Assembly (NCBI RefSeq): GCF_016433145.1
Contig: NC_058131.1
Location: forward strand, 347,099,076-347,163,075
Direction: 5' to 3'
Length of the DNA stretch: 64,000 nt
From: Gracilinanus agilis
Taxonomy: Eukaryota
This document shows, in pieces, positions 9,318 to 62,050 of this stretch. Every line of letters starts with the position of its first letter. Positions within the stretch are counted from its first letter, which is position 1. The notes under the pieces are model-generated. The model was not told where the DNA came from, searched no databases, and saw nothing but the letters and a program-made list of their open reading frames with translations. The translations under genes were made by a program, and so were the position numbers.

Positions 9318-11142
9318 GTGAGAAAAACACGTCGGTGAGGTTTTACATATTCTTTAATTTAGCATTATTCATGAAACTACTGCTGAAATGTAAACTAACA
9401 TCCCCGGAGCCCTCATGATTTATCTTATCAGAGATGCATTACATNNNNNNNNNNNNNNNNNNNNNNNNNNNNNNNNNNNNNNNNNNNNNNNNNNNNNNNN
9501 NNNNNNNNNNNNNNNNNNNNNNNNNNNNNNNNNNNNNNNNNNNNNNNNNNNNNNNNNNNNNNNNNNNNNNNNNNNNNNNNNNNNNNNNNNNNNNNNNNNN
9601 NNNNNNNNNNNNNNNNNNNNNNNNNNNNNNNNNNNNNNNNNNNNNNNNNNNNNNNNNNNNNNNNNNNNNNNNNNNNNNNNNNNNNNNNNNNNNNNNATAG
9701 CAAGAAAAGGTGAATGCAGTGGTTTGGGAAAATAGCAGGGGTCCAAGAATACTCTTATTACCAGTCTGTGGCAAGTAAATCTTGTAATGAGGAAAGTTTT
9801 CTCAACTCAAGTAATGAGTGAGATTTGCATTTTTGTCTTATTTTTTGTTGTAGATGACTGGTCATAGTAAATCTTAAAAACAGGTCAGGTTACAATCAGC
9901 TACTAAGTTAAAAAGCACATGATAAATTCTTGGATCCCTGAATAGAAATTTCTTAGCCAATTAAAGAGGCAATATCACAGTGCAGTGTTATTTTAAAACT
10001 TGTACTGTCCTCACTTGTAATAACTTAATTAGGACCTGCTATAATATTTCACACAAAATCTTTTTTTAAAAAAACTGTTTTGGATTATGTAGAGTAGTTA
10101 GTTTTTGACCCATTTCTCTATGGCAGCAAAACTATACTGTATTACTCTTTTACCAGATGGTGGTGAAAGTGTTAACTATATGCATGCATTATCACTGGTT
10201 TCACAAACTGTAGACTTTATAAAGTTAGCAGTTATTCTCTTAGTACAACTGGTGTAAATAAAATTAAAATAAAACTGGTGTGATTTTTTTTTTTTTTTTA
10301 AATTAAACCGATATTTGTTTTGGAGTGTGTAGCTCGACCATGTGGTATCAATTGTGGATGAGTACTTATTAGCTATAAACATTGTATACTTAGTTTTAAG
10401 TAATAACATAGAATCTTGAAAGAGCTACTTTCTTAATTTGTAATGTTAAGATTTTTGTTCTACCAGTAGTTTGACATGGATATTTTTTCCATGTAAAACA
10501 GGTATGGAAATAGGGAATGTTTAGGCTGGACTNNNNNNNNNNNNNNNNNNNNNNNNNNNNNNNNNNNNNNNNNNNNNNNNNNNNNNNNNNNNNNNNNNNN
10601 NNNNNNNNNNNNNNNNNNNNNNNNNNNNNNNNNNNNNNNNNNNNNNNNNNNNNNNNNNNNNNNNNNNNNNNNNNNNNNNNNNNNNNNNNNNNNNNNNNNN
10701 NNNNNNNNNNNNNNNNNNNNNNNNNNNNNNNNNNNNNNNNNNNNNNNNNNNNNNNNNNNNNNNNNNNNGATGAAAGGGACATAGTACATGGAATAAAACT
10801 TTAAACATGAGTCTTTATGTTTTATAGAAATTACATTTAACCACTTCAGCGCTATAAATCCATAGGATAACTTATTCTAAACTATGTAAAAAATACCTAA
10901 AGTTTAAATTGTTTTATGTGGACAGCATAATTCTTGCATTTTATCGTATGCCTAAAATGTAAACAGCAAAGTGGTTAAACATATCCATCTAAATTTTTTT
11001 TATAGCTTTCCAAATTAAACTATTAATAAGTAATTAGTTTTTAAATTGTTTTGTATTTTTTTATTCCTGTTCCCTTTACCCTTTGACAACTTGAAATGTT
11101 TCCACTTCGTCCTCATGATGTTCTTCTATCAACCCTGCTTAG

Positions 11143-14100: not shown

Positions 14101-16029
14101 TATGCTTTTATTTAGATAAATTTAATGGCTAATTAGTATAGTGTGTTACTATTTTGGTAGTCATGCAATCTTTTGCCTGACCAGAGCTGCCATGAGAACT
14201 GAAGCCTTTTAAAGCAGCTGTTGAGGTTGTAGAAATCCTCTCTTTGAATTGGTCTTGGGGCCATTGATAAGTATATATAACAAGGTTGTCCATTGCATTT
14301 TCTATTTAATGACTATTATTATGAGCATATGTCTTCATCTAAAAATAAATATTTGTGGGGCATACCTTTATTTTTAATTGACTGCCCTACCCATTGAGTA
14401 AAAATAGTTTTTGATTCTGACTCAAAGTCCTTCAGCAACCTAGATGATACAGTGTCAGGTTTTCCAGGCAACAAAGTTGGAATGTTAGCTGTTGCCATTT
14501 TGAGCATTACTATGATGACGTCTATATAAATAATGAGTGTAGCCTAATTTTCTGACATGTGCTACTANNNNNNNNNNNNNNNNNNNNNNNNNNNNNNNNN
14601 NNNNNNNNNNNNNNNNNNNNNNNNNNNNNNNNNNNNNNNNNNNNNNNNNNNNNNNNNNNNNNNNNNNNNNNNNNNNNNNNNNNNNNNNNNNNNNNNNNNN
14701 NNNNNNNTCAATGCATTCCCAGATGACCTGCTTCCAGGATCTCTGAGGCAGATTGATAATTACTCCTATGCTACTTTTGCATTTAAACTTCATCTGGACT
14801 AAAAATTGTTTACATTTCAAAAAATAACACAAAGACTTAAAATATATCACTAATAGTAAATGCCTGAACTTTCAGCCACTACAAATTGACTTCCTTCTTA
14901 AAGGGGAAAAAAATCATCTTTCTTTTTTGTATGTTTAAAACTTTTTTTTTTATGTTGAAAAAGGAATATCTTCAGAAGCATTTAACTTTTGGGTGGGTTA
15001 GGGAGGAATAAAATGCTTCATTCTGTAAATTGACTGGGTTGTATATATGGGGAGTTTATTAGGAAAGGGCAGTGTATATTATTAGATTGCAGTTTTTAAT
15101 AATATTAAAAGTATTCCTGTGTTATACTGAAAATCTACTTAAACTGGATCCTAATTTTTGATGCATATCAGACTGATTAACTGAATTTAACTATTTCCTA
15201 TCTTGGTCCTAGACGTGAACACACACAAAAAATATATGTAAATTCAGTATTACATCCTGATATGTAACAATTAACAATGTCCAGAAAATTGAGATTAAAA
15301 TTATGATTATGCATTTAGATAGTAGCAGAATATTTCGTACATTGTTTTCTCAAGGGAAAATGAAATCAGCTTAATTATGGGCTTCCCCCCCCCCCATATC
15401 TTAAAAGAATAGACAAAAGTGCTATGGTTGGGTGAAGTTAAATATGTAGGACAATATTTAGTGGGGGGTTTTGTATATCATATATTTAATGATGCTTAAA
15501 CTGCATTCTTAATTCTTCAGTTAATTTTAATGGCCAGTTTTGATACTGTATTTCTTTGTTACACAGTTCAGGCTTACTAATTGTATGTATAAGTTGGTCT
15601 AAATTTGACTAGATAAATTCACTTTTGAATCTATCCTAGAATATAAGTTAATAGTGCCAATTATAAAGACTTGAAACAAAAACTCAATTTCCCTTGCTAC
15701 TTAAAGTATCAGCCAGTAGAGGACCTCATAACCATTTCTTTATTGGCATAGGAAGTTCTTCTCTCAATCATGGGCTACTTTAAGTAGAAGGAGTGAGACT
15801 TCATTTAAAGACAGCTTTGTAATAGCAAGTAGAAGTGTAGGGTTTGGAGAGAATGTTGATTTCCTTTAGGAAAAATATTTTAAAAGGTTTATTCATAAGT
15901 GTCTTGGTACATGACAGTGACTTGTAGCACAGAAATTTTATAAGGTGATAATTAAAGTAAAATAACGCCAAAGAAAGGGAAATAAATACTTTTTAAATTT
16001 GCAAAATAAATGTAATCTTTTCTTTGCAG

Positions 16030-36559: not shown

Positions 36560-39500
36560 AGGAGGATTTAGTCCCTTATGTACATAGCTTTTTTTTTTTT
36601 TTTTTTTTTTTAAAGAGGATTCAAACCTGAGTTATCTTTTATTTAGGTAAAACAAAAGGAAAGGGTCTACTGTCATTTGTATGTGATTCCTGTTACCTTG
36701 CCAGAAGGAGAGAAAGATATGATAGCAGGAATGCAGTGTGCTCATTCTCCCTAACTAGCAATTTCCACCTTATACAAAGCTGTTTTCTTGTTCTGCCTTG
36801 TAAATGTACATTTAGAACATTGACTAAGGTGATCTGTAGGAATTGAGAAATAGCTTAGATAAATGTACTTTTCTGTAAAAGGCAGACAAGGATGTAATGA
36901 TGTTTTTAATGTTTCAGAAGCCTAACTTTTTATGCAGCAGTTACATTTTACATTTCACTAAATGAATTTTGACACTTGGCTAATGGTTTAACAGAAATAT
37001 GGTTTCTGGAATACGTATTTAGTGTTCTGTATATGGGAAATTCAAAGACAACTAAATGAGTCCTGGCTTTAGTCAGTAATTCACCTTGCATTATGATAAA
37101 CAATTGGCAAGAAAGGGAGATTCAAAGATTCAATTTCTTGATGGTAACTTTTCAATTAATGTATCTGTAAAAGTTTCTTTGTAAATACTGTGTGTTCTGG
37201 TGTGTCTAAGGTTCCAAACAAAATGATCCCTGCATTTCCTCAAATGTACAGATAAGTGTGGTAAGCAACACAGNNNNNNNNNNNNNNNNNNNNNNNNNNN
37301 NNNNNNNNNNNNNNNNNNNNNNNNNNNNNNNNNNNNNNNNNNNNNNNNNNNNNNNNNNNNNNNNNNNNNNNNNNNNNNNNNNNNNNNNNNNNNNNNNNNN
37401 NNNNNNNNNNNNNNNNNNNNNNNNNNNNNNNNNNNNNNNNNNNNNNNNNNNNNNNNNNNNNNNNNNNNNNNTTTAAAAGGCTGTGAGCAATTTTATTTGT
37501 ATTTTCTAATTGTCAAAAACAGATACAGTATGGTATCTATGAAGTTTCTTTTATCAAATCATTGTGGTACAGTTGGGGGGAAACTACATCTGGAACCAGA
37601 GAACCTGGGTTCAAATCCTAGTTAAGCCACTTTCCATTTGGAGATTAGTTTCCATATCTGTAAAATAAGGGGCACTAAATTTAGAAGACCCTCTGGATTC
37701 ACTTTCATTTCTGAATTCCATGATCCTTTGTGACCAAATTGGTGAACAATGGAAATCTGAGTTCTACAAAAGACCGTTATTAAATATTTGCTTATCTAGC
37801 CCTTTTTTAAAAAAGTATTTTACTTTCCCAATTGCATATAATAATTTCCAACATATTTTTTGAGATTTTAAGATTCAAATATTCCTTCCCTCTCCCCTCC
37901 TGGAGAATGGTAAGCAATTTTATCTGTAGCCTACCTTTAAAGGCAATTTTTCCTATCTAGATTGATTTTTCTCTGTGCAAACTTTGGAAAAAAATCTTCC
38001 ATGCTTCCTGATCAAGACTTATCGTTAGTGTCTTAATTTGATATCTTGTGATCGAAGTACTAGTATCACAGGAGTTATGTGCTAGAGACCCTTTATAACA
38101 GGTGAAAAACCTGCAGTTACGGCGTTGTTTATATTTTGAGGCTTTATAAACCCTTTCCACTCTTCTATAAATCTTAATCCACTTATTAACCTACAGTCAC
38201 CGAGCTAATCAGATAGGATGCAGAACAGCACTGTTTGGTGGCTTTCATTCCATAAATGTAAACTGATTCAGAATTATATATATATTACATATATATGTGA
38301 TTAATGAGGGACAACTGTATATTCATTTTTTCCCTGATGATCTAATTGGACATTTTAACTCACATAATTATGCAACGGAATGGAATTTACCCAGATCTCA
38401 CTGGAGTCCAAGACTTGCCCTTGTCCACAGTCTCAATATACCTATTTAACTTGGCAGTTCTAACACCTATTTGTGGTGGCTATCTGACCAGGTAAACTTT
38501 CATTCTACCTGTTATTCTCAGATCAGAAAAGGTTTCCTGTTATATCTAAGAACTTTATAAAAAATGCTGTTCTTAACACAAAACATGGATACCAAAGGCA
38601 GTTGTGAGAGTAAAGTAAAAATTGTCAAAGTTGTAGGTAAACAAGCATAATGCACACTGCTTTGGTGAGTTGGGAATTATTTCATGTAGATATCCTCTTC
38701 AGGGTTATGTTTTGTTTGTTGATTAACAAATAAAAAAATCCTTAGATTTTTATTACATTACCATGAGAAACATTTGGTTTTGACTAGGAATTTTGGTTGA
38801 AGCAGAGCAGGACTAAAGTAATTTTTAAAGGAAGTAGCAATGTTTATTATGGTGCATTTATTAATAACAAGCAGTTTGGATTTAGGTTATACATGTCAAC
38901 AGCCTTTTTCTCAAGGGAGCTGATGAACATAAACTAATGGCTTGTATAAGTTTTTTTAAGAACCCTGCATTTCATTTATGAGACTACAATAGTACCTATC
39001 AGCAAAACTTGGCCCAAATATAAGTAATTAAGAGAAAGGAGGGGCTGCTTCCAGAGTTCAAAAAGTTCACAGGAGAGCAGATTTACATGTTAGCTTCATG
39101 ACAATATCTCCTTTTGGAGGATTTAAAAGTCTCAAGCAGGACTCTCATGAATCTGTCATAAATCTCTAAAAAAATGCTTGTAAAGCAGCTATCTCCACTT
39201 GTCCAGCCATCTCACTTTTAGTATTTTTCAGTCTATACAACTTTCTCTAAAAACTTTTTCTCTTTGGACTAATAATTTCTGATACTCATTCTTAAGATCT
39301 TTAAATTATCCTTGACTTGCCCACCACTTCCAGTTACCAAAAATGGGGCTCCTTTTTAAATATGTTCATCTTAGAACTGCTAAATTAAAGATGTTTACAG
39401 CATTTGAAATGAAGCAAAAAAAATAGTCAAGCAGGTTCAGATATTTCAGTCTCTTGATGAAAAAATGCTGTTAAATTACATGCAAACTTACTCATTCAGA

Positions 39501-40523: not shown

Positions 40524-40805
40524 CTGGAGGATGAAGCTTTAATGGAGATATGTGGAGACAGGCTCCAGGACATGAGGCCCGTCACCATCCCCCCACTCCC
40601 GGCCCAGGTGCCTCCTCCCTAGGGAATTCAATTCGCCCCTTAACGCCAGGCTGCGGCCACTCCAGGCCCAGCCACCTCCCTCCCGGCGCCGACCGGCTGC
40701 CGGCCTCTTTCCTCCCGCCACTCCCCTAACTCTCGTTGCCCCCAGCGTAGGTGCGTGCCGAGGGTCGAAGATCGAGCCCGGGCCGATCTCGAAGGTTGCT
40801 CTCAC

Positions 40806-40936
40806 CTGAGGCACGAGAAGGTACCGAACAGCGCCCCAGCCGCCATGCCCACGGCGCAGCCCATCACGAAGCCCATCTTCACCCGGTCGAAGCAGCTGGG
40901 CTGGGACTGACCATAGGGACCCACGGCCACTGGCAT
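40806..40936 (-). CDS. ROMO1: ROMO1 first coding exon: [43 protein letters not shown]
   Basis: ATG directly after the CAG acceptor; GTGAG donor; 131+109 = 240 nt = 79 aa, matching human ROMO1 as recalled. Confidence 0.97.
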
Positions 40937-41140
40937 CTGTGCGAGAAGAGACGGGCAGGGATCCAGACTTGAGGCGCTGTGGCCTTCGGCAGAACCGGGA
41001 ATAGAATCGCCGTCCGTACATCCCCAAGAAAGTGAGACCTCGGCCGGGGAATCCGCCGCGAGCAAGGGCGCCAGGCCCACACCTAATCTCCCTCCCCAGC
41101 CCCTAGCGGCACCCCAAGCCCTGTCCGAAAACCTACTCAC

Positions 41141-41200
41141 CTCGTTTTCGGCCTCAGTTGCTCCACTTTACGTTTCGGGAGGCGGGAGGTAAAGTCGTTT
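41141..41200 (-). other. ROMO1: ROMO1 non-coding exon 1 (5' end approximate)
   Basis: Perfect donor GAG|GTGAGT on - at 41140-41135. Confidence 0.7.
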
Positions 41201-41281
41201 CCGGGACAGTGAAGAATAACTTCCGGGAGGTACGAAACGGAAGTGAGAGACAACTTCCGGCCCCAGGAGGCGACGAAGAAG
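41160..41281. promoter_or_regulatory. ROMO1/NFS1 bidirectional promoter with ETS/GABPA sites
   Basis: CCGGAAGT on - at 41219-41226 and 41253-41260; CGGAAGTG on + at 41238-41245; CCGGAAA on - at 41198-41204; within a CpG island of about 40380-41480. Confidence 0.8.
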
Positions 41282-41360
41282 ATGCTGTGGCGGACGGTGT
41301 GGAGAGCGGCTTTCAGGGTCGTGAGCCCCTCCCCTGCGCGTCGGGGACTGCGCCTGCGCG
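41282..41360 (+). CDS. NFS1: NFS1 exon 1, mitochondrial presequence MLWRTVWRAAFRVVSPSPARRGLRLR
   Basis: Arg-rich with no acidic residues; 79 nt; GCG|GTATTG donor. Confidence 0.92.
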
Positions 41361-47008: not shown

Positions 47009-47591
47009 GTGAGTATTTCAGGCTCTCTGTCCTACAGGTGAAGGTGGGCAGTGGGCAGTGATAGACACGGGATCCTCATGTTCTGAAATCTTGTATTTCT
47101 TAACCAGTTAGCATTAGTCAAGCATAAATTGCAAAATCTGTATTATTAATCGATCATTTTATATTATTAATCACTCATAATAGTCTGTACCGTTCTGTTA
47201 TACACACCAGCTTTGTGCTATTCTATATTATTACTCACTTATATTGTTCTGTATTTACCTTAGTTCTCAACTGTTAGGCATTATTAGTCACCTATAGTGG
47301 TCATCTACTGTACTATAGTTTCCCCATGTTCCCGTCTTTGACGAAGGCATTCCAGAAGGGTAACGAGACTTCTCTACATTGACAAATGATGGTAGGTGGG
47401 ACAATGGCAGGAAATATGGGACATGTGCATGAAGGGCTCTGGCAGTCCAGAAGAATCCGCCAAACCTGCACATATACCTTATTCCCTTTTTGGTGTCCTC
47501 AAGATCACCTATGATATGTCAGACCCAAAACCACACCTCTACTGGAATTTGAACTCACCTTATCAATGCTCGTTTTCTGGGATTTGGGGCT

Positions 47592-49318
47592 TGTAATGTT
47601 CCAGAACACCCAGGGGTGGGCTATTCTTGGAAAAGATAGGAATTTCTCTGGAATGGGAAGTGACAAATCCCTAGACCCTCAATAAATATACAACCTTTGA
47701 TCCACATTGGGCTTGTAAGCTTTAAATTAATATCCAATAACTCCAAGTATTGTATTTTATAAGATTTATTAATAATCACTTGAAGTAGGAAAAATACAAG
47801 AACAAAAGTAAAAGCCTGAGTAAAGACATGTGAAAAAAATTCTCCTGCCTGAGACTCACTCCACCTCCACAAACAGATATCAGGGGAACAGAGTGAGGGT
47901 GGAGCTACACAAAACTTATGTCTTCCCCATGTTAGTATGTGAGAAGGAACATGGGAAGCTGGGATTTAGAGTCCTGGGGAGCAAATCCTAATTACACAGA
48001 CTAATCCATCATCTCCAGGGCTACTCCATTAGTCCCAAGGCTATTCTATCCTGTGGCTACACTACTAGCCCCTGGGTTATTCTACTAGCCCCTAGGCCCA
48101 TGTTGGCTGTTATGGGGAATATAAACCCTTGCATTTATTGGTATTGGTATCACTAGTTGTTGGTGGTTATGGATTGGCTCTTGGGTTGGGGTTGATCCTG
48201 TTGACAGCTGGAGTAATGGCTGGACTTGGCCATTGAGGAAAATCATTTTAAGGCTGGCATATATAAAACCTATATATTTATCTATATAGATTAAGGAAAA
48301 GGAAAAGAAACAGACAGGTAGGAATAGTATTGCTTATTGGTATATTGATATATGTACCCTAAATCTAATATTTCTATCTATACACCCTGATCCCAAATCT
48401 GTCTTGCGAGAGACATTCTTCTTCCTTGATAAAATCCAGGCTAACTTAACTTCCTATCTATCTATACCCCTAATTCTATCTCACTAAACTAATCTAAATT
48501 AATTTTATAAGTAATTCCTTTTTTTATATATTTCTTCAAAGAATTGTTGTAATTTTTTCTATTTCTCCAGCCACAGAAATTCCACTACTAACAGGTTTAA
48601 AGATGTTCTCTTCAGCCACCTTCTGGCCCTGCTGCTCCCCTGAAATGTCACAGGGAACAACTAAGCCACTCACTCCAACTGATGATATGTTCTTCAAACC
48701 TCCTCCAAATATCAGTGTTTTCCCAAATCAATCTTCACAAAATTCCTCAAGGATGATCAGAGGAAAACTCAAAACAAACCAGCCTCTGAGTCTCTGTCCC
48801 AGAAGTGTGTCATTATTTCCAACTGCCTCCCCTAAGGCACTCTGGAAATTCTCTCCCTCTGACCTACTCTTCCATGGTATCTTAAAGTAATCTTAGAAAA
48901 TCTCAAATCACTTCATAAACCCTATATCTAGCTACAATCTATTCTTAATTAGGCTAATTAGTAAATAATTCATTACATGACGAACCTGTGGCACCCATAT
49001 TAGAGGGGGCTGCTCGCTCACCCTCTCCACTGTGCTTGAGGGTATTTCTCACATCACCTGATCCTCTGCCCAGCAGCCTAATGGGAACACTTCCTCTCTC
49101 CCCTGTCTGAGGTAAGCTGGGGTGCTCACATACAGTGTGAGGGTTGCAGTTTGGGCACTCAGTCTCTAAAAGGTTTTCCATTACTTTCCTAGGCCAGTTC
49201 ACTAATCTAGGCTATTATACTATCTTAAAAGCCTCTTCTTTAAATAAAAGTTTTTTATACTTCTGGATTGAACAGAGTTTTGAGCTTCCCTTTCCTGGGG
49301 CAAGACCCTACTACAAAC
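47592..49318 (-). mobile_element. Composite ERV/LTR-like region
   Basis: TGTAATG start and CTACTACA end with an LTR-like TTTATTAATAATCACTTGAAG motif; internal structure and TSD unresolved. Confidence 0.35.
48971..49186 (-). mobile_element. hAT/OposCharlie-type MITE, about 216 bp
   Basis: Decayed TIRs CATTACATGACGAACC and GGTTTTCCATTACTT; internal TTTTAGAGACTGAGTGCCCAAACTGCAACCC on -; no 8-bp TSD seen. Confidence 0.65.
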
Positions 49319-53449: not shown

Positions 53450-53658
53450 GCTTTTTTTAGTTTTTTTTTTATTTTTTTATTTTAAACCCTTAACTTCTGT
53501 GTATTGACTTATAGGTGGAAGATTGGTAAGGGTAGGCAATGGGGGTCAAGTGACTTGCCCAGGGTCACACGGCTGGGAAGTGTCTGAGGCCGGATTTGAA
53601 CCTAGGACCTCCTGTCTCTAGGCCTGGCTCTCAATCCACTGAGCTACCCAGCTGCCCC
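53450..53658 (-). mobile_element. Young SINE1_Mdo-like element
   Basis: TSD TCATGAAGCC at 53440-53449 and 53659-53668. Confidence 0.9.
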
Positions 53659-54036
53659 TCATGAAGCCCTTTTATAAACATCATTTGACTTTAAGCACAG
53701 ACATAATATGGAGTCATTGATCTTAGCTTTCCTTCATATTCTAAGACTCTAAAAATTTAAAAACAAAATGGTATGTGTTCAAGGGGTGATTTCCATAAGA
53801 AAATGAGGTAACCATTGGCTAAGTGGATTTTTTTTCCTATTCTTTCTCACTTTTGTTCAAGAACATTAACAGCCAAGGAAGCTGAGGCTTTGATTAGCAG
53901 AATGTTGGTGAAGAACTACTGGCCTGAAGACTGGTGTGTGCTTTTTCCAGATTTTCTGTGAGATCCAAAGTGCAAGGGTCATACTGCCATGGGGTATGTG
54001 AACAACCCACCATGTATTCTATTGCTGTCTCTTTAG

Positions 54037-54171
54037 GACGGATATGCAGTTCCCGAAAAGTGTATTTTCATACGGATGCAGCCCAGGCAGTTGGAAAAAT
54101 CCCACTCAATGTGAATGACATGAAAATTGATCTCATGAGCATCAGTGGCCATAAGCTTTATGGCCCAAAAG
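54037..54171 (+). CDS. NFS1: NFS1 exon 7 with PLP-binding SGHK motif
   Basis: [20 protein letters not shown]...[12 protein letters not shown]; Lys codon 54153-54155; 135 nt. Confidence 0.97.
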
Positions 54172-54615
54172 GTATGGAAAATCTTGAAGTGCCTTATTAT
54201 GTTAACCTTACAGTGGGAGTGCTGCTTAAAACATGGCTGATGTAAAGACTCTTCTTGCTAGACTCATTTAATTCCTCCTTTGACCTTAAGAACTTTGCTC
54301 TCTATTCAGGACCAAGGCTTGTATAATGAGGAGGTCCAAAAGATTTTGATCTGTCAATCAGGGAACCATGAGGTGGGTAAGATAGGTCCAGGCCAGTCCA
54401 ACTCTTGGCCCAGTAAATCTGGTCCCTATTAATAGAAATGTTGAAGCAGATTAGTTAGTATTGAGCAATGAGAAATTACTATATTTTTTAAAAATTTAAA
54501 TAAAATTTTAAAAGGAAGTACTAGATTTAGAGATAGAGGATGTGGTTTCAAATCCAGCTTTTATCCCCTATTACTTTTGTGATACTATACAGGACATTTA
54601 TCCTACCTGGTTGAG

Positions 54616-55021
54616 AGGAGCTAAATGACTTAGTGGATAGAGATCCAAGCCTGGTGATGGGAGGTCCTGGGTTCACATTGGACACTTCTTAGCTATGTGA
54701 CTCTGACAAGGCACTTTACCGTCATTGCCTAGCCTTTACTGCTCTTCTGCCTTGGAAATGATACTGTAATATCCATGTTTCTGAGAGGGGTTCAAGCTGC
54801 ATGACAGAATTCTATGGTGCACCCCAGAACTCTAAGGGAGGAGGCACCATAGAATTCTGTGATGCAGCTTGAACCCCTCTCAGAAACATGGATATTACAA
54901 TACCTAGCATTGATTCTAAGACAGAAGGTAAGAGCTTAAAAACAAACAAACAAAAATAAACAAACAAATAAATGAGTGAATGAATGAATGAACAAATAAA
55001 TAAATAAATAAATAAAATAAA
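54616..55021 (+). mobile_element. SINE with microsatellite tail, interrupted by a palindromic insertion
   Basis: SINE text CTTCTGCCTTGGAAATGATAC resumes as ATACCTAGCATTGATTCTAAGACAGAAGG after 54899. Confidence 0.8.
54765..54899. mobile_element. 135-bp MITE-like palindrome, TGT...ACA ends, 4-bp TSD ATAC
   Basis: 56-bp arms at 54765-54820 and 54844-54899 with one mismatch; 23-nt spacer; ATAC at 54761-54764 and 54900-54903. Confidence 0.85.
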
Positions 55022-56172
55022 GAAGTTGAATTAGGTGACCTTTAAGGCCCTTTGAGTTATAATTGATGGTTCTATATTATCCTATGATCTGATCACAGAT
55101 GGTATAGCCAGTTTTGCCAGAGAGATCTTGCTGCCTGTCTGAATCATCTTTGTCAAAAATGAATTGTTTAAGAGAGAGTATTAAGCATTTAATAATCATT
55201 AAGGGCCTCATATTATACCAGATAGAAGATTAGTCTCAGAGCCAGAATGACCTGGGTTCAAAGTCCTACTTCTGACACATGATGACTGTGTGACTGAAAA
55301 AATCACTTAACTCCCTCTACACCCTTCCAGTGTTCATGGCAACTTTTGAAGAATATAATTTACAGAACAGTTGTTAACTGATGTTGATGAGAGAGTTTTC
55401 TCTCTTATTCTCCTAATAAATGAAACCACAGTTCTAGACCCCCCCCCCCAAATGTTTATGTCTGTGTATGTCTGTGTATGTACATATGCACATGTATACA
55501 TATGTATTCACACACATGTGAAATATACTGTGAGTGATACTGAGTAAAAGATAAAGGGGCCATGTAACACTATTCTGGGATGAACATAGAATGGGCTTAA
55601 TGTTTGTTCCTAGAAGAAATACTCTCTGTGACTGTATGATGGTAGTATGTCAACCGTTAGCTGTTCTGCCTTTCCCTTCTTACTCTCAGATGGGACTCAA
55701 CCTACCTAGGATGCCCCTAGTTTCTTCTCCAAAGGTACCCAAAAGTCACTGTGTTTACAATAGGGCATTTTGTGCTATTGTATTGTATGGCGATCTCAAT
55801 ACCATTGATGACCCAGACCTACCTGTAGAATATAGAAAATGAACTGTGGCTGACTTCCCACTCCACAATGGTTTACCTCTCGATTTAGTCTCATGTCCCA
55901 GAGTGCTAATCATGTACAAAAAGCACACTCTCTACTGTGTCCTTGGGATAGAAAAAGCAAAGATTAAAGGTGCTCCCTGCCTCAGGGAGCCAATAGTCCA
56001 ATTGACAGCATAGAATATGTATTGAAACAGTGGGCAAAAGGCAAGAAGTAGAGTGTTATGGTCAGAATAGACTCTGAATAATGAAACGATCAGAGTAGGG
56101 TTCTTTTCATCATTTTTGAGGTCATCATTTGTTCTTATCCAATTTCTCTCTTTCCTTTTTTTTTTTAATCAG

Positions 56173-56330
56173 GAGTTGGTGCGATCTATATTCGACGTCG
56201 GCCCCGAGTGCGTGTAGAGGCCTTGCAGAGTGGTGGAGGCCAAGAGCGGGGCATGCGCTCTGGGACAGTGCCCACACCCTTAGTGGTTGGGCTGGGGGCT
56301 GCCTGTGAAGTGGCACAAGAAGAGATGGAA
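56173..56330 (+). CDS. NFS1: NFS1 exon 8 ([31 protein letters not shown]...EEME)
   Basis: 158 nt. Confidence 0.97.
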
Positions 56331-56926
56331 GTATGGGAGAGCAACTCATTCCTTTCACTTCCACTTTCATTCTGTGGCTTCCTATCTGAAAGTTTCTCTG
56401 ATTGCCTGTGTCGGTCACCTTTAGTAAGAGCGTGGATAAATGTGAATGAAACATGAGAGGGTTTCAGTCAGTCCCATCTCTAACACCCTCACCCCTAGGA
56501 CCTTCCTGCTGGACTTTTGTTCTGAGTCAGGATTTTCCTTGGGCTCTTGGAGCTCATTCTTTGGAAGGAGAAATGGATTGTCAGGCTAGCTTTTGTCACT
56601 GAATAGCTTAGGTAACTTTGGACAACTCATTGAACTTTTCTGGGCTTCAAAAGGAATGGGGATGAGACTATCTAATCTGATCTCTAAGGCCTCTTCTAGC
56701 TTTGGCATTTTGTAATTCTGAAATATCATGTTCTTCACTTTGGAGCTTTTTGACCTATTTTTCAAACATCTGGGACTGGGCAGGAGCCTGGTATTTTTGA
56801 GTGCTGTATTTAAATCAGGATGATACTGTTCTCCACTAACATTTTTTTCTTGTCTTGTATAAATCCTTAAGTTGTAAGACCTGACAACTTATGTCCCAAT
56901 CACATTCTCCTGTGCTTATTTCTCAG

Positions 56927-57032
56927 AATGACCATAAAAGAATCTCTATGTTAGCAGAAAGGTTGGTAGAAAAGATAATGAGCAACCTTCCTGATGTGGT
57001 GATGAACGGGGATCCACAGCAACACTATCCAG
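56927..57032 (+). CDS. NFS1: NFS1 exon 9 (NDHKRISMLAERLVEKIMSNLPDVVMNGDPQQHYP)
   Basis: 106 nt. Confidence 0.96.
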
Positions 57033-57123
57033 GTCTGTCTCCCTCCCTTTGCAGTCTAGTCCCTCTTCTTTCTCTAGCCTAGGGAAGAGTAAGAGAATAC
57101 TCATGGGAGATCCTTTCCCTCAG

Positions 57124-57205
57124 GCTGCATCAACTTGTCCTTTGCCTATGTAGAAGGGGAGAGTCTGCTGATGGCACTCAAGGATGTTGCTTTGTCTTCA
57201 GGCAG
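57124..57205 (+). CDS. NFS1: NFS1 exon 10 ([26 protein letters not shown])
   Basis: 82 nt. Confidence 0.97.
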
Positions 57206-57210
57206 GTGAG

Positions 57211-57452
57211 TAGGGTTGTCATTCAGTCCTATCTGATTCTTTGTGACCCCATGGACCATAGCTATCCATGGAGTTTTCTTGGCAAGAATACCAAAATAAT
57301 TTGCCATTTTCTTCTCCAGCATATCCTTTTGACAGGCAACCAGAGGTTAAATGACTTGCCCAGGATCATGCATCTAGGAATCATGGATTTGAATTCAGGT
57401 CTTCCTGACTCCAGGTCCAGTACTCTTAACTACTGAGCCACAGCTGCCCCAA
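57211..57452 (-). mobile_element. MAR1-type CORE SINE with RTE/BovB-like tail
   Basis: GAGTTTTCTTGGCAAGAATAC...TTTGCCATTT..TTCTCCAG followed by CORE sequence. Confidence 0.7.
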
Positions 57453-58344
57453 GGGACATACAGTAAAATCCTTAATTAGATGTGTAACTAAGTACTATTA
57501 GCATTAATTGGACCTTCTAGCAAATGGAGGACATATAGGAAAGTGCTTTGCTAAAAGTACAAAGTAGTGCTACAGATGCTGTTTAATTGCAATACACTTG
57601 GAAGACATGAAGAGTGCTATATAAAACATCTACCAGGTATCATGTTAGCCAGAGTGGACTTAACAGGACTTATGCCAACCAGGGCAATGCCAGGGTTCTC
57701 AGACAACCAGAAGTTAAGTTTAAAGGAATGGATCTAGGCTTCCCTGAAATATCAGTTCTAGGAGAGGCATATCTAGGTTTGAAGAAGGTTGCTCTTCTGT
57801 AGCAGCTTTCCTAATAACCCATAAGGTATCATCATGCTTTAGCAGTTTCATCATTTGAGATCTTGCTTGGACTAAGAGATTGAGTATTTCACCAAAAGAC
57901 CAGAAGTTAGCTTGGAGCTTTTGGCATCTATAGACCAAAAATGACAGTTTTGTTGAGGCTATAGGATTGATTGGGGAAGCAGAGCACTTCTCAGATGGGC
58001 TGTGGTGGTGATGCAAGCTGGTCAAGGTTGCTCATTCATCAGTAGTTAATAAACATTTATTAAGCATCTACTTGGTGCCAGAAGCTGTGGAAAGTGCTAG
58101 GAGGTGGCATGGTGGAAAAGTCAAAGAAATCTAGACTGCATCCCATTGGTGGGGAATGAGGAAGCATGTAACGAGATATTTCTCTGGTTTCCCCTTCTTA
58201 AGTGGAAGGTGAAGAGTTCATGGTTGTATCATCCTCAGTCAGCAGAGAGGACTAAGGAGGAGGGAACATCAAGGCTGCATCTTCTGAGATGATAGAGTTT
58301 ACCAAGGGCATGGTGAAGTAGTTAAATCAAAAATGGGTACAATG

Positions 58345-58535
58345 GGCAGCTTGGTAGCTCAGTGGATTGAGAGCCAGACCTAGAGACAAGAGGTCCTGCC
58401 TTCAAATCTGTCCTTAGACCCTTTCTAGCTGTGTAACCATGAGCAAATCACTTAATCCCCATTGCCTAGGCCTTACTGTTCTATTGCCTTAGAATACACT
58501 ATTGATTCTAGGATGGGAGGTAAGGGCCTTTAATT
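58345..58535 (+). mobile_element. SINE
   Basis: GGGCAGCTTGGTAGCTCAGTGGATTGAG start through GGTAAGGG. Confidence 0.8.
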
Positions 58536-58632
58536 GAAAAAGGAAAGAAAAGAAAACGGTTGGAAAAATAGCTGGTTGGAAATAAAGAGCTGTCTGAGGA
58601 ATTTGGCTTATACCTGTGTTTTGTCTTCCCAG

Positions 58633-58716
58633 TGCCTGTACCTCTGCATCCCTGGAGCCATCCTATGTACTTAGAGCCATTGGCACAGATGAAGACCTGG
58701 CCCACTCTTCTATCAG
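58633..58716 (+). CDS. NFS1: NFS1 exon 11 with catalytic Cys ([27 protein letters not shown])
   Basis: 84 nt; SSGSAC cysteine codon TGT at 58637-58639. Confidence 0.97.
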
Positions 58717-58737
58717 GTCAATAGGATAGGGCTGAGG

Positions 58738-59099
58738 CTCTCCCTCCCTTCCCCTTCTTCTCCCTCTCTATCCTTTCTTCCATCTCTTCTTCCTTCCCTC
58801 CCTGTCTCTTTTCCCCTTCCCCTCTCCCGGTTCCCTCTGTCTCCTTCCCTCCTCCTCCCTCTTTTCCCTCCTCCCTTCTTTCTCTTTGTCTCTCTTTCCC
58901 TTCTTCCTATTCTCTCGTTCTCACTCTTTCTTCTTTCTCCTTTTTTTCTCTCTCTGCTCTTCCTCCTCTTCCCCTCTTTCTCTTCTCTCCTCCCTCTCCC
59001 TGTTCCCTATCTCCCTCTCTTCTTCCTCCTTCTTTTTCTTTCTCTTCCTCCTTTTCCTCTCTCTTTCTTTCTGTCTTTTTTCCCTCTTTTTTTTCACTC
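58738..59099 (+). repeat. Low-complexity C/T tract of about 360 nt
   Basis: Seen directly; almost purine-free. Confidence 0.95.
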
Positions 59100-59174
59100 A
59101 TTTAAAATATTTCCTAAATGAATGAGCCCTTCAGTGTCCACCCTAGCCTCATGGCCTACTGCAATGCATTTCAG

Positions 59175-59264
59175 GTTTGGCATTGGTCGTTTTACCACAG
59201 AGGAGGAGGTAGACTACACAGCTGAAAAGTGCATCCACCATGTTAAAAGGCTACGGGAAATGAG
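59175..59264 (+). CDS. NFS1: NFS1 exon 12 (FGIGRFTTEEEVDYTAEKCIHHVKRLREM)
   Basis: 90 nt. Confidence 0.97.
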
Positions 59265-61822
59265 GTAGGAAGCCTCCCTGAAAATAGTGTGGCATTGTTG
59301 AAAACAAATTTGGACTCAAATGACTTGGGTTTGAATCCCATCTCTGCTACTTGCTATCTCTATGACTTTGGACAAATATTTAAGTCTTGTTAGGCCTCCA
59401 GAGAGGTTTTCCATCTGTTAGGACACTGGATTAGATAATCTCTAAAATTCTTTCCTTGATCTTTCTTTGATCTTTCTCTAATTAAGATCCAAACTAAAAT
59501 GGAAGCTCCTAGGATACATGGTCATGCAGACAAGGTTTGAGAACTCCTGAATTCCTTTATTTAGGCATCCTTGTGATCTGAGGTAGCAGATAGACACCCC
59601 TGAGCACAAGTACCACGCAGAACAATGATGAACTTGGTGTAGACTTTCTCATGGGTACAAAGAGGTTGAATCAGAAGAGCCTCCTTCTAGGCTCTGTTCT
59701 TAAAGGCTCAGAGTTCCTGACCATGGTCTTCCAACCAAAGAGCTTCCCCTAGTAACATCAGATCTCAGAGATTTCCCCTTAAGCTTCAGAAAAAGTAGAC
59801 ACTGCCATGAAAACAGTGAGTAGTTTGAATCCTCTTACTAGATGTCTGGTTTTTACTCCTTTGGGGGCTTTTTACAGGCAATTCATTTCTTCCTTTGGGT
59901 TTGGAATTACCAAGATTACAACTGTAGCTTCCTATCGAGTAAGGGCATTACTGAAACCCTTCTTGGCATCTAGATTTTCTTTCCTAGTGGTTTGAGCCAA
60001 TAAGATGTAAGCTCCTTATAGGCAGAACTGTTTGTTTGTTTTTTTATCTTCATATCCCCAATACCAGACAGAACTGGACTGTAACGTCTATCATTAGAAC
60101 TAGTAAGTGAGAACTGCCTCTGTTCTGGGCCTGAAGCTTGTGTCCTCAGTCTGCCTTTCTGGTCCTTTCTAGCATGACAGAGCGACCCCTAGGCTGGCAT
60201 GTTACCTTCATGACTCATTGCCCTCTTACAGGCTTATGATAGGCATTATATCTCTTTTGCTTATGCCCGGTTAGAAACAAATCTGACTTTCTTAGTAGGC
60301 CATGCTTTTTTTTTTTTTTTTTAATTTAGTCTTTCAGTCTTAGTAACAACTCTTACAGGCAAACAGGGTTGAGTGACTTGCATATAGTCAGACAACTAGG
60401 AAGTATCTGAGGGCAGATTTGAACTCAAGGCCTCTCATCTCCATATCTGGCACTCTTATCTACTGTGCCACCTAGCTACCCCTAGTTTCCTATGCTTGAT
60501 GTCTAAGCTGAAGCTACCAGCTAAAGCCTTAGACTGTGACATCAGTGCCCTACAGGCCAAAAGGAAGTGACTAGTTGTTTGAAGGAAGAAAAAAAGGGGG
60601 GGGGGAGGAGAGAATAAACATTTATTAAGCATTTACTGTGTGCTAGACAATGTACTAAGCACTGAAGATACAGATACAAACAGAGAGAATACCTCTGTCC
60701 TCAAGCAGTTTACATTTTAAAGGTGAAAAGCCAGCACACAAAAAGGATTTGAAAAGATGGAGGGTGGTGGGCAGGGGAGAGACTGAAGATATCTACACAC
60801 CTGGCTTTTCACATCTTTCTAGTGAGAGAAGGGGGCCAAGACTTGAGGTAGGATATTCCCTGATGACCAGGCTGCCAGGTGGTAGATTGTTCCAGGGGGA
60901 GGAGATTTCAGGCATAGAGGGAAGCAGATACCAGGATAAGGAGGACAGCAGAAAGACCTGGTTTTGAAGTATGTTATGGTAAATGAATAAATAACTCTGT
61001 GGGTTAACTAACAGAATAACAAAACCGGTGACAAACAACTCCAGGGTGGTTTGGTAAGAAGAGGAATGGGGAATGGAGGAGAGAGGGAAACCACCAAGAG
61101 AAGCTGCTGGGGTTATCTCAGTGGGTTCTTGTTGTCAAGATGCCAGGTTTGTCTGGGAAAGGAGAAGAACAAAGAAGGTCTGTATAAAAGGGTTTTAATA
61201 ATAAACTAGGATAGGGAGTGAAGGGAAGTAAGGAAAAACTGCCACTTAAGTCTAAAGGTAACTGTCAGAGAATGGAGGGATGGTGATGACTATGAACACT
61301 AAATCTACCAGCAGACTTGCCTGTGGTAAGGGCTGGCTTTTCAGGGGTAAGGTTATCTCATGAAGCTGTCCTTGACTAATCTTTAGATGTCTCTGGTCCC
61401 AGGAAACTCTGGTTACACAGAAAGATATAATCCAAGTGGGAAGTCAGAGATATAGGATTATCTGTGTGTCCACCATCACAGACAAAAATCGTGTCTCAAC
61501 CTACAGCTTCACTGTTCTGAGATCCCAGATGCCACACAGGCTCACTCAGACAGCTGCTTACAAAGCTAACAAATGCCAACGACCGCCAACTCCAGAATCA
61601 CTGTGTGCAAGTCCCCTCTGTGGCAGGATTCCAAGCTTGGAATTCCAAGCTCTTGCCAGCTTGCCTGCTTTCTGCTAACTAAATTTCTAATCTATATTTT
61701 CTCTAAAACAAGTATAAAAATTCAGGAACAAAGTAGAAAGGAATGAGATGAGGTTAGGGTAACTTTGCACATTGCAGTAGACATAAGGTATATGGGGTAG
61801 GGGCTCTGATTTAGTGAATGCT

Positions 61823-62050
61823 TCCTTATTATTATTCTTATTATTTTTTTTATTATTATCCCTTACCTTCCTTCTTAGAAGCAATACTGTGTGTTGGTTC
61901 CAAGGCAGAAGAGTGGTAAGGGCTAGGCAGTGGGAGTTAAGTGACTTGCCCAGGGTCACCCAGCTAGGAAGGGTCTGAGGTCACATTTGAACCCAGGACC
62001 TCCTGTCTCTAAACCTGACTCTCAATCCACTGAGGCACCCAGATGCCCCC
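61823..62050 (-). mobile_element. SINE with (TTA)n tail
   Basis: TSD TGAATGCT at 61815-61822 and 62051-62058. Confidence 0.85.

What the first reader, a model, noticed from the sequence alone, without database searches (positions are those of the whole stretch)
54761..54903. Young 135-bp palindromic insertion with TGT...ACA ends and a 4-bp TSD: possible unrecognised MITE class
Seen: 56-bp arms (54765-54820 and 54844-54899) with one G-G mismatch (54803/54861), a 23-nt spacer and ATAC duplicated on both sides. It splits a SINE that resumes colinearly, so it is younger than the SINE and unlikely to be an assembly fold-back. Established: opossum hAT elements make 8-bp TSDs and Tc1/mariner duplicate TA, whereas TG...CA ends with 4-bp TSDs typify retroviral-type integrases and Ginger DNA transposons (TGTNR ends, Bao et al. 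2010); I know of no mobile Ginger in mammals. Inference: a Ginger-like MITE, or a head-to-head pair of LTR ends integrated by an ERV integrase. In NFS1 pre-mRNA it forms ~56 bp of dsRNA that could be an ADAR or Drosha/Dicer substrate.
Basis: partly seen in the sequence, partly recalled or inferred. Interest (0 to 1): 0.8.

Follow-up and report, generated by a model that had tools for sequence, protein, structure and literature searches.

The report
Integrase-stamped palindrome in marsupial intron
A 135-base mirror-image piece of DNA was pasted into an older repeat inside a marsupial gene's intron and carries the footprint of a retrovirus-type insertion enzyme; it is probably a doubled retroviral end, but it could be a kind of mini-transposon not reported in mammals.

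Summary
The structure is real: 56-bp arms (55 of 56 paired), a 23-nt spacer, TGT...ACA ends and ATAC on both sides, splitting a SINE that resumes in register. Neither arm comes from the SINE, so it is an insertion, not an assembly fold-back. It lies in a sense-strand intron of an NFS1-like gene. No second copy occurs in the window. No eukaryotic DNA collection was available, so copy number, the decisive fact, is untested and 'MITE class' is not shown.

TG...CA ends with a 4-bp duplication point to a retroviral-type integrase. The target fits the weak MLV consensus VTAB but not the published Ginger1 (CCGG/CCGT) or Ginger2 (RTATAY) targets, and the element has no CpG, like long-resident vertebrate or retroviral DNA. 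Best reading (0.5): one ERV LTR end copied back on itself and inserted by an ERV integrase, a rare dead-end. Rivals: a horizontally acquired Ginger-type MITE (0.22; Ginger MITEs occur in Rhodnius, which shares transposons with mammals), a TA-duplicating Tc1/mariner MITE with one terminal mismatch (0.1), or a solo LTR remodelled in place (0.1). The hairpin could bind ADAR but is long for Drosha. One genome BLAST plus a Dfam search would settle it.

The parts
54761..54764 (+). [quoted passage not shown]
   Evidence: single ATAC in 6 of 12 aligned uninterrupted SINE copies
54765..54820 (+). Left arm, 56 bp, starts TGTAA (fits TGTNR); no CpG
54821..54843 (+). 23-nt spacer or loop; holds a degenerate direct repeat (11 of 13, p about 0.017) of a motif in the inner left arm, so arm and spacer may be one parent stretch
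   Evidence: the parent-stretch reading is inference
54844..54899 (+). Right arm, reverse complement of the left arm except at 54861; ends TTACA
54900..54903 (+). Right copy of the 4-bp duplication (ATAC)
54615..54760 (+). 5' part of the host SINE (resembles the opossum SINE1_Mdo group; family label recalled, not library-tested); start approximate
54904..54945 (+). 3' part of the host SINE resuming in register, followed by an A-rich tail and microsatellite to about 55020
54172..56172 (+). Host intron (GT...AG) between two consecutive class-V aminotransferase exons of an NFS1-like gene; the element begins about 590 nt after the 5' splice site
   Evidence: Pfam PF00266 profile positions 163-206 and 206-271; splice sites; the name NFS1 rests on domain plus the ROMO1 neighbour, recalled synteny

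Best explanation
A dead-end insertion made by an endogenous-retrovirus (gamma-like, 4-bp) integrase, in which both ends are the same LTR terminus. Proposed steps: during reverse transcription a short strong-stop DNA covering about 79 nt of one LTR end snapped back on a few complementary bases and copied itself to the terminus; a second strand made it a 135-bp duplex with two identical att ends; integrase joined both ends 4 bp apart into a SINE, and gap repair left ATAC twice. Shown: the insertion, its ends, the 4-bp duplication, the target fit and the lack of LTR promoter, poly(A) or primer signals. Inferred: LTR parentage, the snap-back, the enzyme. It cannot move again by the retroviral route. 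In the sense pre-mRNA it forms a long stem, probably a neutral ADAR-type substrate removed with the intron.
For: TG...CA ends with a 4-bp TSD are listed for Ginger, IS481EU and LTR/retroviral integrases. MLV's target consensus is VTAB and gammaretroviruses make 4-bp TSDs; 4-bp retroviral integrases favour a central YR step and avoid RY; ATAC fits both. 0 CpG in the 79 unique nt against 4.2 expected (P 0.004 in shuffles), in line with the window's CpG o/e of 0.21 and symmetric in both arms, so the loss predates arm copying or homogenisation. The opossum had a recent LTR burst. No Ginger2 transposon was detected in vertebrates, and human Ginger1 is listed only as domesticated genes. LTR-like ends elsewhere in the window also read TGTAAT.
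Against: No parent LTR was identified. The similarity to the LTR-like segment at 47714-47996 is within chance: window-wide p about 0.1-0.13, conditional p 0.06-0.18. Searches for a described snap-back LTR-end insertion returned none in their listings, so the mechanism has no precedent that I saw. VTAB is a weak consensus and one site is one draw. A multi-copy family is far likelier to be met in a random window than a one-off. Arm length 56 sits well inside Ginger TIR ranges.
Confidence: 0.5

Rival explanations
1. A Ginger-type MITE: an internally deleted derivative of a Ginger1/Ginger2-like cut-and-paste transposon, acquired horizontally (for example through a blood-feeding bug) and amplified in the marsupial germ line by its transposase.
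For: Ends fit TGTNR, TSD is 4 bp, arm length fits TIRs of about 40-270 (Ginger1) and 50-180 bp (Ginger2), and a 252-bp non-autonomous Ginger2 with 52-bp TIRs exists. Ginger MITEs were reported as shared by Rhodnius and Bombyx, and Rhodnius shares four TE families with mammals. The architecture of long arms and a tiny spacer is the usual MITE one (recalled).
Against: The 6-bp target GATACC matches RTATAY at 2 of 6 positions and is not CCGG/CCGT. No CpG where 4.2 are expected. No Ginger2 transposon was found in vertebrates, the opossum draft included. 'Ginger' does not occur in the main text of a 23-vertebrate survey or a bat DNA-transposon survey. No second copy in the window.
Confidence: 0.22
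2. An ordinary Tc1/mariner-type MITE at 54764-54900 with a TA duplication, whose terminal base pair is mismatched and whose flanks mimic a 4-bp duplication.
For: The empty site is identical under this parse, and the inverted repeat extends through TA on both sides (59 nt). Tc1/mariner elements are widespread in vertebrates.
Against: Needs a terminal mutation plus two flank coincidences: likelihood ratio about 157 for the 4-bp parse if the family's ends are symmetric, but only 1.7 if they are intrinsically asymmetric. Among the 12 TA-TSD MITE clusters shown in Table 2 of PMC4678618, none starts TA-CTG or TA-TTG.
Confidence: 0.1
3. A normal solo LTR inserted with a 4-bp TSD and was later remodelled in place: a replication template switch copied one end in reverse and returned at the LTR's short terminal inverted repeat, deleting the interior.
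For: Explains the ends, the TSD and near-perfect arms in one step. Template switches create stems de novo; events of 28 and up to 83 bases are described.
Against: Needs a jump of a few hundred bases landing exactly on the LTR boundary (inference: rare). No interior LTR signal is left to check.
Confidence: 0.1
4. An assembly or library fold-back, a local template switch on SINE sequence, or captured prokaryotic or viral hairpin DNA.
For: The assembly has four N gaps. Long palindromes are error-prone in assemblies (recalled).
Against: Neither arm resembles the SINE or anything else in the window; there is a TSD and an arm mismatch. No match in plasmids and only one chance hit in phages. 0 of 18 exact 17-mer hits in GTDB genomes extend or have a second arm.
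Confidence: 0.05

Closest known systems
Gammaretrovirus-like (ERV1) integration products and solo LTRs
   Same: TG...CA ends, 4-bp TSD, target fitting VTAB with a central YR step
   Different: Both ends are the same terminus in inverted orientation; only 135 bp; no AATAAA/ATTAAA/AGTAAA or TATAA signal on either strand; no parent LTR found
Ginger2/TDD non-autonomous elements (e.g. Ginger2-1N1_NV) and insect Ginger MITEs
   Same: TGTNR ends, 4-bp TSD, TIR of 50-60 bp, short and non-coding
   Different: Target is not RTATAY; not detected in vertebrates; copy number and partner transposase unknown
Ginger1
   Same: TGTNR ends, 4-bp TSD, TIR 40-270 bp; Bao et al. speculated its TIRs came from two LTRs in opposite orientation
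   Different: Ginger1 targets CCGG or CCGT/ACGG in 99% of 112 sites; human traces are only domesticated genes
IS481EU/Banshee and IS3EU/GingerRoot
   Same: TG...CA-type ends; IS481EU can make 4-bp TSDs
   Different: IS481EU was found in parabasalids; IS3EU/GingerRoot make 6-bp TSDs with mostly TA ends
Template-switch hairpins that seed new miRNAs
   Same: Near-perfect intronic stem made in one copying step
   Different: Here both arms are foreign to the site and flanked by a TSD; the stem is longer than the preferred 35 bp

Membership tests
Ginger1 | TGTNR ends, TIR 40-270 bp, 4-bp TSD | tested here: met
Ginger1 | CCGG or CCGT/ACGG target | tested here: not met
   TSD is ATAC
Ginger2/TDD | TGTNR ends, TIR about 50-180 bp, 4-bp TSD | tested here: met
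Ginger2/TDD | RTATAY target preference | tested here: not met
   GATACC matches 2 of 6; one site only, and the preference comes from 64 Nematostella elements
Ginger1 or Ginger2 | Autonomous partner with the same TIRs and an integrase-like transposase | not testable with these tools
   no eukaryotic DNA collection; the arm has no second copy in the window
MITE | Short, non-coding, TIRs and TSD | tested here: met
MITE | Many dispersed copies of uniform length | not testable with these tools
   one copy in 64 kb; the protein-set proxy failed its positive control
ERV1 integrase product | TG...CA ends, 4-bp TSD, VTAB / central YR target | tested here: met
   weak consensus, one site
ERV solo LTR | Promoter and poly(A) signal, direct U3-R-U5 layout | tested here: not met
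   no AATAAA, ATTAAA, AGTAAA or TATAA on either strand; palindromic layout
ERV LTR end | Arm equals a known LTR terminus | tested here: inconclusive
   only the LTR-like segment of this window could be compared; p 0.06-0.18; no LTR library on hand
Tc1/mariner MITE | TA duplication with symmetric termini | tested here: inconclusive
   the TA parse is possible but has a terminal C/A mismatch; LR 157 or 1.7 for the 4-bp parse
hAT | 8-bp TSD (recalled) | tested here: not met
   flanks agree for 4 bp only
microRNA precursor | Match to a known family; stem about 35 bp | tested here: not met
   all 11 Rfam matches are below gathering score and the 5 shown are structure-driven; 0 at gathering in the window; stem 56 bp against 35 preferred
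microRNA precursor or ADAR substrate | Small-RNA reads or A-to-I editing | not testable with these tools
   no expression data; supplements of PMC3530682 not available

The most novel reading that the evidence does not exclude
This is one copy of a dispersed family of TGT...ACA, 4-bp-TSD palindromic elements in a marsupial. It would be either the first mobile Ginger-type transposon family in a mammal, brought in horizontally, or a family born by doubling one ERV LTR end and then spread by an integrase-type enzyme: a live example of the LTR-to-TIR conversion proposed for the origin of Ginger1.
Probability: 0.22. Interest if true: 0.8.

Novelty: new variant of a known kind. Interest (0 to 1): 0.45.

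Why it matters
If multi-copy, it adds an integrase-type DNA transposon to the short list known to have moved in mammals and extends the bug-to-mammal transfer story beyond hAT and mariner. If single-copy and LTR-derived, it records a retroviral integrase inserting a 135-bp duplex with two identical ends. That would be a concrete intermediate for how LTRs could become terminal inverted repeats (an open question in Bao et al. 2010) and a route to ready-made intronic dsRNA. If it is a known TA-type MITE it is ordinary. An effect on the host gene is unlikely: the element is mid-intron, and inverted SINE pairs already offer dsRNA in the same transcript.

Tried and rejected
Second copy or related arm in the window: none by blastn (word 7) or nhmmer. 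Rfam: only sub-threshold, structure-driven miRNA hits. Copies sought indirectly as spurious ORFs in the protein sets: one 40%-identical unrelated tandem-repeat protein and nothing else. The positive control, an open frame of a SINE copy, also found nothing, so these blanks say nothing about copy number. Phages: one chance hit, E 0.1; plasmids: none. GTDB genomes: 18 exact 17-mer hits, 0 of 18 extend. Relation to the LTR-like segment at 47714-47996: a 16-of-18 match and a colinear alignment that beat 3036 of 3036 windows, but the target was chosen after seeing the match; 3 of 30 shuffled queries gave such an 18-mer hit, 8 of 60 shuffled queries scored as high window-wide, and conditional p was 0.06-0.18, so it is rejected as evidence. 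A scan for other TG...CA plus TSD elements gave 36 pairs against 17-36 in 20 shuffles; a second 135-bp candidate at 15120-15254 does not fold (z -0.7). Literature: 10 searches showed no description of this element, of a marsupial Ginger family or of a snap-back LTR-end insertion in their listings; a 17-mer of the arm was in 0 main texts and in none of the supplement files searched (2 files; 4 files with one other not searched). Gentles et al. 2007 was not held, the opossum repeat table of PMC5851578 was a picture, two papers had no readable supplements, and Zhang et al. 2013 on Rhodnius/Bombyx MITEs was seen only as a reference. Repbase and Dfam could not be searched, so an existing entry under another label is not excluded. 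The viral and metagenome contig collections stayed unchecked.

Full report
Observation. Arms 54765-54820 and 54844-54899 pair at 55 of 56 positions (G-G at 54803/54861) around a 23-nt spacer, with ATAC on both sides. It is the only hairpin with an arm of 18 nt or more in the window; 10 block-shuffled windows reached 10-15 nt. The RNA fold has z -17.45, with 0 of 200 shuffles as stable. Removing the element and one ATAC gives a sequence that aligns end to end with other SINE copies. Of 13 other copies found, 12 were aligned (the shortest dropped): 6 show one exact ATAC at that column, 3 match 3 of 4 bases and 3 are gapped. Neither arm resembles the SINE or anything else in the window. So this is foreign DNA inserted with a short duplication, not a fold-back of local sequence.

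Setting. The host SINE differs about 20% from the column majority of the other copies, which themselves range 10-31%. It resembles the opossum SINE1_Mdo group; that label and the marsupial assignment are recalled, not library-tested. The site lies in a GT-AG intron, 54172-56172, between exons that match consecutive parts of Pfam Aminotran_5; a Romo1 exon lies upstream on the opposite strand. The name NFS1 follows from this and recalled synteny. The gene runs on the + strand, so the hairpin is in its pre-mRNA. Per-arm divergence is 0.9% (95% CI 0.02-5%), but arms of hairpins can be re-matched by template switching, so only 'younger than the SINE' is shown.

The same filled and empty sites result if the element is 54764-54900 with a TA duplication and a C/A mismatch at the terminal pair. 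This needs a terminal mutation and two flank coincidences. The 4-bp parse is favoured about 157 to 1 if the family's ends are symmetric, but only 1.7 to 1 if they are intrinsically asymmetric. None of the 12 TA-TSD MITE clusters tabulated in PMC4678618 starts this way. I keep it at 0.1.

Which enzyme. TG...CA ends with a 4-bp duplication are reported for Ginger1, Ginger2, IS481EU and LTR/retroviral integrases (PMC2836005; PMC10045372). The element meets the Ginger end, TIR-length and TSD-length criteria, but not the targets: Ginger1 uses CCGG or CCGT/ACGG, Ginger2 prefers RTATAY, and GATACC matches the latter at 2 of 6 positions. ATAC does fit MLV's VTAB (PMC2857682) and the central-YR preference of 4-bp retroviral integrases (PMC4422553). 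These are weak consensuses and this is one site. The 79 unique bases hold 0 CpG against 4.2 expected (P 0.004), matching the window's o/e of 0.21, and both arms agree. The parent was therefore CpG-poor before the arm was copied or homogenised, as expected of retroviral or long-resident vertebrate DNA and less so of a recent insect import (inference). Ginger2 transposons were not detected in vertebrates (PMC3575427), human Ginger1 is listed only as domesticated genes (PMC5753468), and the opossum had a recent LTR burst (PMC4350176). Against this: Ginger MITEs are reported from Rhodnius and Bombyx, and Rhodnius shares four TE families with mammals (PMC4678618), so a horizontal route exists; and a family is likelier than a one-off to turn up in a random window.

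Mechanism. Most likely (0.5): in reverse transcription of an ERV, a strong-stop DNA covering about 79 nt of one LTR end snapped back and copied itself to the terminus, was made double-stranded, and was integrated as a short duplex with two identical att ends. The insertion, ends and target are shown; parentage, snap-back and enzyme are inferred. The spacer holds a degenerate direct repeat of an inner-arm motif (11 of 13, p about 0.017), compatible with left arm plus spacer being one parent stretch. The element has no poly(A) or TATA signal on either strand, so it is not a working LTR and cannot retrotranspose on its own. Rivals: Ginger-type MITE (0.22), TA-type MITE (0.1), solo LTR remodelled in place by a template switch (0.1; such switches create stems de novo, PMC10710096), artefact or prokaryotic capture (0.05). 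The weights are judgement, not computation.

Results against my reading. No parent LTR was found. An LTR-like segment at 47714-47996 shares TGTAAT and a 16-of-18 motif with the element, and a gapped alignment outscored 3036 of 3036 window segments. But the target was chosen after the match was seen, and proper nulls give p of about 0.1 (3 of 30), 0.13 (8 of 60) and 0.06-0.18. Three searches for a precedent of snap-back LTR-end insertion showed none in their listings.

Copy number is untested. No eukaryotic DNA collection, Dfam or Repbase was available. A proxy search for spurious ORFs found one unrelated protein and otherwise nothing, and its SINE positive control was also blank, so it carries no weight. 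Phages, plasmids and GTDB genomes hold nothing related. The viral and metagenome contig collections stayed unchecked.

RNA. The stem forms on either strand and has 31 adenosines, so it is a plausible ADAR substrate (established property of long dsRNA; not tested). It is not special in that respect: four inverted SINE pairs under 6 kb apart lie in the same gene region, though only 73-84% identical. At 56 bp the stem is well over the 35 bp preferred for miRNA processing, and no Rfam family reaches gathering score.

Papers seen. PMC2836005: parts 1-3 of 5 and passages. Passages only: PMC5753468, PMC10045372, PMC3575427, PMC5851578, PMC4408412, PMC3582472, PMC2517846, PMC10710096, PMC4350176, bioRxiv 2023.03.23.533946, PMC2857682, PMC4422553, PMC4678618. 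Supplements searched: 2 files of PMC4678618 and 4 of PMC4408412 (one other not searched). PMC3530682: title only. Not seen: Gentles et al. 2007 (not held), Zhang et al. 2013 (reference only), the opossum repeat table of PMC5851578 (a picture), and the supplements of PMC3530682 and PMC2517846. Any of these, or Repbase/Dfam, could already list the element.

Verdict. A real, clean insertion with an integrase footprint and an unusual doubled end. It works like an integrase-family insertion; it is not shown to be a Ginger or a MITE. Novelty: new variant of a known kind. Interest 0.45; 0.8 if it proves to be a dispersed family (probability about 0.22).

Noticed in passing
window 47400-48250: Nested LTR-like sequence in an NFS1-like intron: TGTAA/TTACA ends at 47592, 47714 and 47996, an AATAAA on the minus strand near 47770, and GGGCT direct repeats at 47587, 47709 and 48018 that may be 5-bp TSDs. 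Boundaries not resolved; LTR identity is inference.
   Followed up: partly
window 15120-15254: Another 135-bp stretch with TG...CA ends, an 11-of-12 terminal inverted repeat and TCCTG on both sides; it does not fold (z -0.7) and is probably one of the chance pairs.
   Followed up: partly
window 40800-41350: ROMO1 (minus strand, Pfam Romo1) and the NFS1-like gene (plus strand) start head to head within a few hundred bases in GC-rich DNA, suggesting a shared promoter.
   Followed up: no
window 53526-62048: Four inverted SINE pairs, 73-84% identical and 1-4.7 kb apart, lie downstream of the NFS1-like start and could form pre-mRNA duplexes.
   Followed up: no
window 2994-63574: At least 14 copies of one SINE group, in at least two tail variants: three aligned copies lack a 17-nt block near the 3' end.
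   Followed up: partly
window 9445-9696, 10533-10768, 14568-14707, 37274-37471: Four N gaps of uneven size, so this is a draft assembly.
   Followed up: no
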